IMG/VR virus record: IMGVR_UViG_3300021431_000003
Location: 159,529-223,528 of that record
DNA length: 64,000 nt
DNA from: a virus
Lineage: Duplodnaviria > Caudoviricetes
Strand: one strand, 5' to 3'
Shown here: piece after piece, positions 36,318-39,874 of the stretch
Layout of the letters: the number at the start of each line of letters is the position of its first letter
How positions within the stretch are numbered: position 1 is the stretch's first letter
The notes under the pieces: model-generated
The model's input: only the letters and a program-made list of their open reading frames with translations
What the model was told of the DNA's origin: nothing
The model's database searches: none
Program-made: the position numbers and the translations under genes

Positions 36318-36935
36318 TTATTCTTCGTAAAATTCAACCTGACATTCTTCTGGAAAAGAGTGTTCATAATAAATACAATCTGATGATATTGTTACTTTCT
36401 TTAGATTAGTTCTATAGAATGCGTAATCTGCTATAAACTTTACAGTTGTCGGTATCTTAATCTTATTCAATATAGGAATATCATAAAATGCACCAAAAGT
36501 TTCAAATGGATCCATAGTATTTTCCATTACTGGATATCCGTCTATCTTTTCTGTATTTATATCAGTAAAATGTCCATATACTATATTTCTACAGTCTTGG
36601 TCAGGGACTGTAAAAGGTAGATATCCAATATCATAATTATAAGATGGACAACCAGATAAGATATCATTATTACCTATATGAGTAAAGCTACCATACACAA
36701 TAGCTCTACAATCTTGGTCTGGTATTGTGTATGGTAAATAACCGATATCATATCCCATAGATGGATAGCCTGATAGAATATCATTATTTCCTATAGTATC
36801 AAATGTACCACATACAATATCTTTTACATGAATGTCTATTTGATAGTCCATGTTAGGATTATCAGGTAAATTATATACACTAGGATAACCGTCACATTTA
36901 TTAGGGTCTAATACAAAAGGAGAATCATCATCCAT
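36318..36935 (-). CDS. 39-aa repeat protein with C-terminal partial BspA-type LRR
   Basis: GNNDILSGxPSxxYDIGYLP repeats; GAFYDIPILNKIKIPTTVKFIADYAFYRTNLKKVTI. Confidence 0.75.
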   Translation of the reverse strand: MDDDSPFVLDPNKCDGYPSVYNLPDNPNMDYQIDIHVKDIVCGTFDTIGNNDILSGYPSMGYDIGYLPYTIPDQDCRAIVYGSFTHIGNNDILSGCPSYNYDIGYLPFTVPDQDCRNIVYGHFTDINTEKIDGYPVMENTMDPFETFGAFYDIPILNKIKIPTTVKFIADYAFYRTNLKKVTISSDCIYYEHSFPEECQVEFYEE

Positions 36936-36955
36936 TTTGACACACCTCCAACATA

Positions 36956-37981
36956 TTAAGGTTCTGTATCTTGCTTAAGTTTAAATGGAAAGATAGCAGT
37001 AGGACCTTCAAATGTAGACCTATCCTTACATTGTGCTGTTGTAAGACCCATAACTTGTGACGTTCCCAAATGATAAGTGCAATCAAAAAAACTCCAAGTA
37101 GCTTTATCTTTATCATAAAAACTATATGTTAGAAAATAAAGACCGTAAAAAGTTGGAGTAAGTTTAACATTACCAGTATTCTCATATATAAAATATGAAT
37201 TAGATGTATATACATTAGAATATGAACTTTGTGCACTACCAATTCTAAATGTTTTTCTATTATCTTCTTTAACCATATCTATATCAGATTTATAATTAAC
37301 AAATACTCCACAATTATTTATACTAACATTAGAACCGAAAAGTCCTGCTAAAGTATCACTGTAGAATACTCTAGCTATTGATCTTCCCCAACCCATTGGG
37401 TCGTATATGTTAATTTTTAATATACTATCTTTTAAACCATAACCATGATAGCCTGGATCAGATGTAAATAAACATGCCAAATCATTTGATGCTGTAATAA
37501 GGTATATATCATATGAAATATTACAACTTATCATTTCATATATCTTAAATCCATTAAATATTAAAGGATAATTATAATCAGTGACTGCTCTTTTATTAGC
37601 CAAGTATACTTTAAATTTAATATCACAATTTAAAAAAGAAGCTGAGCTATTACCATAAGCAAATTTATCTACATAGAAATCTCTGAAATTAGTATTATTA
37701 ACCGATGTGTTAAATATATACATCATGTTAAAATTTAAGTTTTTATAAATAGGCTGAATCATGTTTATTTGTTGATAATTAAATATAGACATTGCATTTA
37801 TGCAAGCTATATTGTTAAAACTGTAACCTCCACCATCGATTTCAGTACAGGATGCTATATTGATTGGATAACTAGATACTGTAGTGAAATCTATATCTGC
37901 CGTAAGCTCAATCTTTGTACAAGATGCATCAGCACATGCAGCAAGAAACTCTGTAATATTACTAACTTGTACAGTAGCCAT
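36956..37981 (-). CDS. Putative beta-helical adhesin / receptor-binding protein
   Basis: IELTADIDF...IDGGGYSFNNI start and GLTTAQCK end as in pectin-lyase-like/GLUG-type adhesins; start ATG 37981 after GGAGGTG; very AT-rich. Confidence 0.55.
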   Translation of the reverse strand: MATVQVSNITEFLAACADASCTKIELTADIDFTTVSSYPINIASCTEIDGGGYSFNNIACINAMSIFNYQQINMIQPIYKNLNFNMMYIFNTSVNNTNFRDFYVDKFAYGNSSASFLNCDIKFKVYLANKRAVTDYNYPLIFNGFKIYEMISCNISYDIYLITASNDLACLFTSDPGYHGYGLKDSILKINIYDPMGWGRSIARVFYSDTLAGLFGSNVSINNCGVFVNYKSDIDMVKEDNRKTFRIGSAQSSYSNVYTSNSYFIYENTGNVKLTPTFYGLYFLTYSFYDKDKATWSFFDCTYHLGTSQVMGLTTAQCKDRSTFEGPTAIFPFKLKQDTEP

Positions 37982-37999
37982 ATGTACATACACCTCCTA

Positions 38000-39874
38000 T
38001 TATTCAATACTTGTAACACCTTCTGGAATAACAATCTTCCTAATAGTCTTGTTTTTATTAAAGGTTGTACCATAAAGTGATCTAGTTTCTTCATCGTTCC
38101 ATCTTACTGGAACTTTTACACTATCACTTTCACCAATATAGAATACTGTATTAGACTCACCATCTACATCATCAGTAGTAGGAATAGTATGCCAAATAAA
38201 CTTATCGCCATCTTCCTCAAAGTAATACTCATCTATAATGGTAGGTATAATTTCATCTAGGTTAATAAAATCTGGTTCATTCATTGCTTCTTTATCATAT
38301 GGAGTCATTGGACCAGTCTTATTATTCCAATTATAGAATAGCTTATTAAGATTCTCATCAGACAAATCATTCAGCATTTCATCTAATAAGGTTCTCTCAG
38401 CATACGACTCTAGGTCGGTTATAGACCAGTGTTTTATTCTTAATGTATCTTTATAAGCATTAGGTTTATTCGTACCACTAAATTGATTTCTAGCAACTGA
38501 ATCATCATGATTTAATCCATCATTGATAAAGAGTTGTTCAATAATATCTTGTGTATCAAGATGATTAATTACTTCCAATCTAACAGCATTCATGTCTTCA
38601 TTATTACGAGCATAGTCTGTATTGATAGACATGATTGTATCAGAGATATCTTCTAATTCATCAAGTCTAACCTTTTTACCATTTAAGAATACAAAGGTAG
38701 AATATTTAGAAGATATAGCATACAATGGAGAACGCATCTTAATATAATTAGTTTTCCAGTTTACATTCTCATTTAGCATTTGTTCACCTATTACTCTATA
38801 CTCATTAGAATGTGTATTGAGTAAAATAGCACCGTTTTTGATATAACGCTCTTTATTTTGCATATCATAATAATCACACTCTAAATGATGTAAGTCGTTT
38901 GTTACATAGAATACATCTATAACATCTCCAGCTTCAAGTGCAACGTTAAAGATTATACCTACATCATTTATAGGAGTATTTACAATAGAATGTAGATAAT
39001 AATATGTTGGTGGTAATAATAAACCGTTCTTGAATACTAACAAATGAGAATTCTTTAAGCAATATTTAAAGTCATCGTTTAATCTATAGATAAATCCAGC
39101 TTCATGATTATTATCAATAGTAAAGTGCTTATATCTAAACTGACGTTTAGAAGTAAGGTATAATGTATACGGAACAGTAATAGTACGTTCTGTAGTATAA
39201 TTAGCATCCTGATATTGTTCTTGCGATGTAGAACTACCAGTTGCTAAACCAGCTCCAAGAGTCACATTTCTAATTCCAGTATCAGCAAATGCATAATCTC
39301 CAATATGTACTACATTATCAGAGAATGTAATAGCTGTACCTAAGTTAGCACATTTATCAAATGCACTTTCGCCGATAGATGTTATAGAATCAGGGAAAGT
39401 AACTATAGCTTTATTTGTTGTTGTATCATCATCATGAATAATACCAACACACTTTACTGAGCTACTATAACAGAATTGAATCGGAATTGTATTTATAGAA
39501 ATATCATCTCTAAAGAATATATATTCAATAGAACAACAGCTATAGAATACTCCAACTCCAAGGTTTGTTACAGAAGATGGGACTACGATTGTATTCATAG
39601 CCCCACTATTCATAAATGCATAATCTCCAATATTAGTTAGTGTTTCTGGGAGGATAATCTCAAATTTAAACATATTAAGATTAGAGAATGCACGATTTTC
39701 AATTTTTGTAATATCTTCCATGACAATTTGTTTTATGTCATTAATATTCATTCTTAAGCTTTGAATAAGACTTTGTTTTACTGTACTATTAGATGAGTCG
39801 CCATATATTGTAATATATGGGTCATTCTTATCTATATCAGAAAAGTCTGTCTTAGCACAATATATTCTTTGCAT
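38000..39874 (-). CDS. Virion protein with N-terminal BspA-type LRRs and C-terminal half repeat
   Basis: LPETLTNIGDYAF, VPSSVTNLGVGVF, FPDSITSIGESAF; ends IRKIVIPEGVTSIE-stop. Confidence 0.8.
   Translation of the reverse strand: MQRIYCAKTDFSDIDKNDPYITIYGDSSNSTVKQSLIQSLRMNINDIKQIVMEDITKIENRAFSNLNMFKFEIILPETLTNIGDYAFMNSGAMNTIVVPSSVTNLGVGVFYSCCSIEYIFFRDDISINTIPIQFCYSSSVKCVGIIHDDDTTTNKAIVTFPDSITSIGESAFDKCANLGTAITFSDNVVHIGDYAFADTGIRNVTLGAGLATGSSTSQEQYQDANYTTERTITVPYTLYLTSKRQFRYKHFTIDNNHEAGFIYRLNDDFKYCLKNSHLLVFKNGLLLPPTYYYLHSIVNTPINDVGIIFNVALEAGDVIDVFYVTNDLHHLECDYYDMQNKERYIKNGAILLNTHSNEYRVIGEQMLNENVNWKTNYIKMRSPLYAISSKYSTFVFLNGKKVRLDELEDISDTIMSINTDYARNNEDMNAVRLEVINHLDTQDIIEQLFINDGLNHDDSVARNQFSGTNKPNAYKDTLRIKHWSITDLESYAERTLLDEMLNDLSDENLNKLFYNWNNKTGPMTPYDKEAMNEPDFINLDEIIPTIIDEYYFEEDGDKFIWHTIPTTDDVDGESNTVFYIGESDSVKVPVRWNDEETRSLYGTTFNKNKTIRKIVIPEGVTSIE

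What the first reader, a model, noticed from the sequence alone, without database searches (positions are those of the whole stretch)
36318..38140. Second split LRR: gene ending IPEGVTSIE-stop is continued by a gene two positions downstream
Seen: the 38000 protein ends with an LRR start-like segment and a half repeat (DSVKVPVRWN...FNKNKTIRKIVIPEGVTSIE, then TAA TAG). The 36318 protein has an LRR part with no N-terminal half, beginning at FGAFYDIPILNKIKIPTTVKFIADYAF. IVIPEGVTSIE + xGAFYDIPIL is again in register. A complete adhesin-like gene with its own RBS lies between them. Inference: a chain of LRR snap connectors (39889 to 38000 to 36318) lets tail-tip or adhesin modules be attached and swapped as separate proteins.
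Basis: partly seen in the sequence, partly recalled or inferred. Interest (0 to 1): 0.75.

Follow-up and report, generated by a model that had tools for sequence, protein, structure and literature searches.

The report
Split leucine-rich-repeat plug on phage tails
Phages of the gut bacterium Ruminococcus cut one small repeat domain in two at a fixed point, put one half on a tail protein and the other on a swappable host-binding module, so the halves probably click together as a natural plug and socket, a way of attaching phage adhesins that I found described nowhere.

Summary
Confirmed and widespread. In this complete 223.5-kb jumbo phage, gene B (38000-39874) ends with a BspA-type LRR N-cap plus half a repeat, and gene C (36318-36935) carries the missing half from x-G-A-F onward, in register with no gap or overlap. 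The stop is not an error. 25 B homologs stop at the same position. Unrelated Ruminococcus sipho-prophages have the same anchor/adhesin/adaptor trio on different tail proteins: 30 of 34 C-half loci have an upstream N-half stopping at that position. All three stop codons are used and no DNA junction motif is conserved. Five complete jumbo relatives without the N-half also lack C-half and adhesin genome-wide, and the tree needs at least 4 changes. Adhesin and C-half occur fused in some phages; N- and C-half never do. Complex prediction gives weak support (0.41 vs best control 0.01). Best reading: non-covalent fold complementation docks receptor-binding modules onto the virion. Binding, virion location and exchange of modules are inferred, not shown.

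The parts
38000..38152 (-). N-half ('socket'): BspA LRR N-cap plus first half-repeat at the C-terminus of B (residues 575-624), ending at I-x-stop
36318..36497 (-). C-half ('plug'): x-G-A-F start, about 1.5 LRR_5 repeats and a family-specific C-cap (C-x-Y...S-F-P...C), residues 147-205 of C; AF2 pLDDT 85-92
36498..36935 (-). N-terminal arm of adaptor C: ~30-40-aa G-Y-P repeats, variable in copy number, low confidence when folded alone (pLDDT mostly <50); probable adhesin-binding or linker region
36956..37981 (-). Adhesin-like cargo, 341 aa; GLUG/pectate-lyase-like fold, conserved ends and hypervariable core; RBS overlaps B's stop
38000..39874 (-). Anchor B, 624 aa: N-terminal LRR_5 (1-211, AF2 pLDDT ~90), conserved core (225-545), C-terminal N-half
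39242..39874 (-). Connector 1, LRR part on B (N-terminal repeats ending without a cap)
39889..40080 (-). Connector 1, cap part at the C-terminus of the 1397-aa protein A; absent, together with B's LRR, where A and B are one ORF
39889..44082 (-). Protein A, 1397 aa, putative virion protein; follows a PHROG 'virion structural protein' gene (44079-45032)
36287..36312 (.). Terminator-like hairpin directly after gene C, closing the cassette
   Evidence: consensus match only

Best explanation
A small BspA/LRR_5 solenoid (N-cap, about two repeats, C-cap) is split in the middle of its first repeat between two separately translated proteins. Shown: the anchor protein always ends one residue after the conserved Ile, and the adaptor always enters the solenoid at x-G-A-F. 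Inferred: after translation the halves stack and complete the fold non-covalently, which fixes the adaptor to the tail/baseplate protein. The adaptor's N-terminal repeat arm holds the adhesin encoded next to it; in some phages the two are one chain. Both halves lie at or near C-termini, so the junction couples two proteins tail-to-tail, which a gene fusion cannot do, and leaves the adhesin pointing outward. Because the docking face is constant and the cargo is variable, adhesin+adaptor cassettes can be added, duplicated or replaced. Relatives carry one N-half and 1 to 4 C-half cassettes, which would compete for the anchor's copies on the virion.
For: Exact register and a single stop position. 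Same trio in jumbo phages and in several unrelated sipho tail modules, on anchors from under 100 to 1900 aa. 30 of 34 C-half loci with upstream DNA have an N-half gene (some near-duplicates). Jumbo relatives: N-half present means cassette present, N-half lost means cassette absent, also genome-wide in 5 complete genomes (positive controls 107, 108, 111), with 4-6 changes on the tree. Adhesin-to-C-half fusions in L200, L201, L204, L206, L209. Other cargo on the same C-half: a CAP/SCP domain in L089. None of 70 distinct C-halves has an N-cap in its own chain. In jumbo cassettes, adhesin C-terminal similarity tracks the adaptor's last repeat (rho 0.68, p 0.001) but barely the LRR half (0.17), and the LRR half is the most conserved part. 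Complex prediction: score 0.41, best control 0.01, runs agree in at least 94% of contacts, partner pLDDT at least 74. That mark was reached by 58 of 80 solved and 2 of 110 mismatched pairs, but at 0.60 or under by only 7 of 80 solved and by both mismatches, so it is weak, and halves of a split domain can pass by likeness to solved LRRs.
Against: Adjacent genes are co-inherited, and one deletion can remove the N-half and the cassettes together, so co-occurrence alone is not proof. The adhesin-adaptor correlation is also open to co-inheritance and was not significant in 9 sipho cassettes. Exceptions: G021 has a C-half protein with no terminal N-half found in the genome, and three degraded or rearranged prophage fragments lack a local N-half. 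B has no structural annotation of its own: its place in the virion rests on neighbours and on the tail-module position of the sipho anchors. AF2 folds the C-half confidently alone.
Confidence: 0.75

Rival explanations
1. The halves do bind, but C is a folding or assembly chaperone for the adhesin, or a cap that protects B's open LRR edge; it is not a lasting tether for swappable cargo.
For: Gene order adhesin-then-small-gene resembles fibre plus chaperone pairs (own knowledge). C's arm is unstructured alone.
Against: Adhesin and C-half are one polypeptide in five loci. A different cargo (CAP domain) sits on the same C-half. A pure cap would not need up to four paralogs each beside its own adhesin.
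Confidence: 0.1
2. The two half-domains are independent, self-sufficient mini-domains (or bind other partners or host surface) that only travel together as one tail operon.
For: The C-half alone models at pLDDT 85-92. Operon linkage explains co-occurrence. One genome has a C-half without an N-half.
Against: It does not explain the single stop position with a variable last residue (E, R, D, K, Q, L, Y), nor the exact complementarity on non-homologous anchors, nor decayed N-cap remnants in lineages without cassettes.
Confidence: 0.1
3. The halves are joined covalently, by DNA rearrangement, RNA splicing, readthrough/hopping or protein splicing, giving one continuous LRR.
For: Perfect reading register between the two ends.
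Against: No conserved nucleotides at either junction beyond codon constraints; TAA/TAG/TGA used 26/10/10. No Rfam intron in 34000-46000. No joined form in 70 C-halves. Intervening and adaptor genes have their own RBS and conserved N-termini. There are no intein-type terminal residues. Joining would discard the cargo.
Confidence: 0.04
4. Recent nonsense mutation or assembly error in one LRR gene.
For: None beyond the look of a truncated repeat.
Against: Same stop in 25 homologs and in unrelated phages from many samples; complete genome with terminal repeats.
Confidence: 0.01

Closest known systems
BspA-type / TpLRR leucine-rich repeat, Pfam LRR_5 (PF13306); solved 4GT6, 4FS7, 4H09, 4CP6 (PcpA), 6MLX (TpLRR)
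   Same: Both halves and B's N-terminal region match the repeat by sequence and fold.
   Different: Known members are single-chain solenoids of many repeats. Here a minimal solenoid is split between two genes at a fixed residue and has a family-specific C-cap.
DUF7941 head-to-tail module of Chimalliviridae (Goslar gp22/gp23/gp161; bioRxiv 10.64898/2026.04.21.720040)
   Same: A jumbo-phage module proposed to dock host-recognition domains on the peripheral baseplate by one chain binding into another.
   Different: No DUF7941 hit here. That module polymerises and carries LRRs as cargo; here the LRR itself is the connector, made of two non-identical halves, and it also occurs in siphophages.
Donor-strand complementation (chaperone-usher and type V pili) and the engineered SpyTag/SpyCatcher pair (own knowledge)
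   Same: One protein completes the incomplete fold of another.
   Different: Different fold (Ig-like there). No chaperone/usher, no conserved reactive Lys/Asp; the last residue of the N-half varies.
Engineered repeat-protein fragment complementation, e.g. armadillo-repeat fragments (own knowledge; only papers mentioning it were retrieved)
   Same: Fragments of a repeat solenoid reassemble non-covalently.
   Different: Laboratory constructs. The present case would be a natural, horizontally spread use.
Siphophage baseplate adaptors such as BppU-BppL of TP901-1/Tuc2009 (PMC4742702 listed, not read) and cohesin-dockerin of Ruminococcus cellulosomes (own knowledge)
   Same: A constant docking element displays variable binding or catalytic modules.
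   Different: Those dock complete domains on each other; no homology was found or expected.

Membership tests
BspA-type LRR (PF13306) | 23-residue repeat with IPxxVxxIxxxAF pattern above Pfam cut-off | tested here: met
   C 29.8 bits and B 94.7 bits vs cut-off 27.7; PDB hits
BspA-type LRR (PF13306) | N-cap, repeats and C-cap in one polypeptide | tested here: not met
   0 of 70 C-halves have an N-cap upstream in the same chain; N-halves stop after half a repeat
Fold-complementation docking pair | Two separately encoded parts that are complementary in register | tested here: met
Fold-complementation docking pair | Joint presence and absence on non-homologous carriers | tested here: met
   exceptions
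Fold-complementation docking pair | Physical binding of the halves | tested here: inconclusive
   prediction only, weak: 0.41 vs control 0.01
Phage receptor-binding protein module | Located in tail/baseplate gene block; variable binding domain with conserved attachment ends | tested here: met
   sipho loci follow tape measure and tail genes; adhesin core similarity 0.07 vs ends 0.22-0.23; GLUG/pectate-lyase-like fold
Phage receptor-binding protein module | Present in the virion and binds the host surface | not testable with these tools
   needs virion proteomics and binding assays
DUF7941 filament module | DUF7941 domain | tested here: not met
   no such Pfam hit on A, B, adhesin or C at E 0.1; whether this Pfam copy holds that model was not checked
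Intron / intein / site-specific DNA rearrangement | Conserved junction nucleotides, intron RNA, or intein terminal residues | tested here: not met
   read-level joints could not be tested

The most novel reading that the evidence does not exclude
A natural, portable tag/catcher pair of about 50 + 60 residues, made by splitting one LRR repeat, shared by jumbo myophages and several siphophage lineages of Ruminococcus. It would load interchangeable adhesin cassettes, several kinds per virion, onto any tail protein, with a second, orthogonal split LRR in the same operon replacing a covalent link between two virion proteins.
Probability: 0.55. Interest if true: 0.85.

Novelty: new variant of a known kind. 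Interest (0 to 1): 0.75.

Why it matters
It would be a previously undescribed way of attaching receptor-binding proteins to phage tails. A universal docking face lets very different phages of one host genus exchange adhesin cassettes, and a virion may carry a mixture of them. It gives a function to many 'leucine-rich repeat' and 'hypothetical' genes in rumen and gut phages, and it warns that such truncated repeats are not pseudogenes. The claim is directly testable with two short peptides. If binding is tight, the pair is a compact C-terminus-to-C-terminus protein coupler, and a natural case of a repeat solenoid working in trans.

Tried and rejected
Single-protein scans of viral contigs found no relatives. 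The C-half alignment was too variable for the search for related loci. No match among INPHARED phages, so no cultured, annotated phage was found with the module. The profile search of 1.84 billion representatives was swamped by giant BspA proteins and served only as a set of intact N-caps. Fold search of C against viral models gave nothing significant. The genome-level 2x2 table in 161 genomes (13/4/17/127, Fisher p 4e-8) is not relied on: the N pattern was designed after seeing these loci, and both halves mark prophage presence. Readthrough from B into the adhesin was considered because they are in frame in the window, and rejected because the frame is not conserved (gaps of 18, 59, 51, 19 nt). 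Adhesin-adaptor covariation was not significant in siphophages. Paper searches for split LRR, Ruminococcus phage tails with LRR, and fold complementation at baseplates found no description.

Full report
Setting. The window is the last 64 kb of a complete 223,528-bp virus record with direct terminal repeats. It is a jumbo phage with multisubunit RNA polymerase genes, its own gyrase, helicases and endolysin. On the minus strand run: a PHROG virion structural gene (44079-45032), A (39889-44082, 1397 aa), B (38000-39874, 624 aa), an adhesin-like gene (36956-37981, 341 aa), C (36318-36935, 205 aa), a terminator-like hairpin (36287-36312) and a 274-aa gene with a hydrophobic N-terminal segment. The genome has one such adhesin and one full C-half.

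Observation. B ends with an LRR N-cap and half a repeat, then TAA. C has LRR_5 only at its C-terminus, starting at F-G-A-F. In 127 of 145 intact BspA N-caps, A-F follows two residues after the I-x at which B stops, so B's end and C's start fit with no gap or overlap. The TAG after B's stop is part of the next RBS.

The stop is conserved. Of 70 homologs of B's residues 230-624, 25 end at exactly this position (57-93% identity), 44 lack the half repeat, many with a recognisable remnant of the N-cap, and one is distant. Across all material, 70 distinct N-caps stop right after I-x, none 1-13 residues later, and the last residue varies. Part of this set was pattern-selected, but the unselected subsets agree. 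Stop codons are TAA 26, TAG 10, TGA 10, wobble positions vary, and no junction motif is shared. The constraint is therefore on the protein end, not on DNA or RNA. A control came from the genome scan, where the pattern also admitted Trp: the Trp hits fell mostly in internal repeats of ordinary BspA genes, while all four true stops in an LRR context fell after an N-cap, all in Ruminococcus, and all four genomes hold a C-half.

Co-occurrence in the jumbo family. Every relative with the N-half and enough downstream DNA has 1 to 4 C-half genes, each next to an adhesin gene (L001, L003, L005, L007, L012, L014, L016, L023, L031). Every relative without it goes straight from B to the 270-280-aa gene (19 loci, many near-identical). 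Five complete genomes of the second kind have neither C-half nor adhesin anywhere, and four tested have no N-half. The B-core tree needs 6 changes of the N-half label, at least 4 forced by well-supported branches. A caveat: one deletion can take the N-half and the cassettes together.

The same trio in unrelated phages. Pattern scans found it in small IMG/VR contigs after tape-measure and tail genes. The C-half occurs in 30 of 161 genomes of the genus holding R. flavefaciens NALB_7963_3, against 3 of 401 in a family-wide sample that was searched less deeply. Starting from the C-half, 22 of 26 prophage loci and 8 of 8 viral contigs with upstream DNA have an N-half gene that stops at the same position. 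The anchors are non-homologous: 500-580-aa tail proteins, ~280-aa and ~450-aa proteins, 88-141-aa mini-proteins, and the jumbo B. One locus has two complete trios (L158) and one has two N-halves in tandem (L141). Of the four exceptions, three are broken or rearranged fragments (two of those genomes have an N-half on another contig), and one (G021) is a real C-half without a terminal N-half. The jumbo phage's host is not determined; Ruminococcus is an inference from this distribution.

Cargo. The middle gene has a GLUG/pectate-lyase-like fold (Atlas TM 0.55-0.68), with conserved ends and a hypervariable core. This is the pattern expected of a receptor-binding protein (established knowledge). 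In L200, L201, L204, L206 and L209 the adhesin and the C-half are one 512-590-aa protein directly after the N-half gene, which ties the cargo to the plug. In L089 the C-half carries a CAP/SCP domain instead. Where they are separate, the adaptor has a variable number of G-Y-P repeats that AF2 cannot fold alone, while the C-half folds at pLDDT 85-92. In jumbo cassettes the adhesin's C-terminus co-varies with the adaptor's last repeat (rho 0.68) but hardly with the LRR half (0.17); this was not significant in siphophages and is open to co-inheritance.

Connector 1. A ends in a different LRR cap, and B begins with repeats that stop earlier in the repeat, A supplying its own I-G. Where A and B are one ORF (L003, L005, L023), both parts are missing while the N-half and cassettes remain. 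Where the N-half and cassettes are lost, connector 1 remains. The two pairs are thus gained and lost independently and differ in register, which argues for separate pairing. On the midpoint-rooted tree the fused forms nest among split ones, suggesting that fusion is derived, but that branch is not strongly supported.

Prediction. ESMFold2 on the two halves with alignments scored 0.41 against a best control of 0.01, with contacts agreeing in at least 94% between runs and partner pLDDT at least 74. The tool rates this weak: the mark was reached by 58 of 80 solved and 2 of 110 mismatched pairs, but at 0.60 or under by only 7 solved pairs and by both mismatches. Halves of a split domain can also pass by likeness to solved LRRs. 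AF2 of B gives a confident N-terminal solenoid and a moderately confident C-terminal half (pLDDT 63-69), with BspA-type PDB matches.

Mechanism. Shown: the split, its register, its conservation, joint occurrence, and the natural fusions of the other links. Inferred: the halves assemble non-covalently, B is on the virion, the adaptor arm binds the adhesin, and paralogous cassettes compete for the anchor. Both halves sit at or near C-termini, so the pair joins two proteins tail-to-tail, which may be why this link was never found fused (0 of 70). Covalent joining is unlikely, though reads could not be checked.

Comparison and verdict. The parts are LRR_5 by sequence but fail the single-chain criterion. 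The system works like donor-strand complementation or the DUF7941 docking proposed for Goslar (bioRxiv 10.64898/2026.04.21.720040) but belongs to neither. Nine paper searches and the scan's own notes gave no description on other DNA; the library omits most subscription journals. I class it as a new variant of a known kind (docking by fold complementation), confidence 0.75 in the mechanism, interest 0.75.

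Noticed in passing
window 39242-40080: Second split LRR (connector 1) between A and B; both halves vanish exactly where A and B are a single 1770-1910-aa ORF (L003, L005, L023).
   Followed up: partly
G000 C1:117440-120905 (outside the window): Long ordinary BspA LRR region in two overlapping ORFs (971 and 206 aa open frames, different frames), possibly a frameshifted gene.
   Followed up: no
L012:11886-19896: Array of six or more adhesin paralogs with only one C-half adaptor; two adhesin copies are broken just after a short G run near their 5' ends, suggesting frameshift or phase variation.
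   Followed up: no
L003:11920-12659 and L004: One adaptor gene is split by a frameshift into 178/140-aa and 87-aa ORFs, while the L005 ortholog (283 aa) is intact.
   Followed up: no
L151:9438-10469: C-half fused to a different, fibre-tip-like domain in a prophage with no terminal N-half found in the genome (G021): the clearest exception.
   Followed up: partly
L089/L162, L184, L179: Prophage type whose anchor has an internal complete LRR plus the terminal N-half, followed by a CAP/SCP-domain protein that ends in the C-half (seen in full in L089).
   Followed up: partly
L028, L139, L144, L152, L157 adaptor C-termini: Many sipho adaptors carry a further conserved ~30-aa tail after the C-half (G-Q-L-x-D...D-x-x-G-x-x-I-Y-V), possibly another docking peptide for the next gene's product.
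   Followed up: no
window 46036-46830: MazF/PemK-like gene (Pfam E 2.9e-8) conserved upstream of the operon in all jumbo relatives examined, with no obvious antitoxin.
   Followed up: no
window 32347-33051: HNH-type endonuclease gene right after the 404-aa RNA polymerase subunit, conserved in relatives.
   Followed up: no
window 34546-35253: Lipoprotein-like ORF with a long Thr-rich linker and a C-terminal domain resembling 3D/RlpA-type cell-wall proteins (by eye).
   Followed up: no
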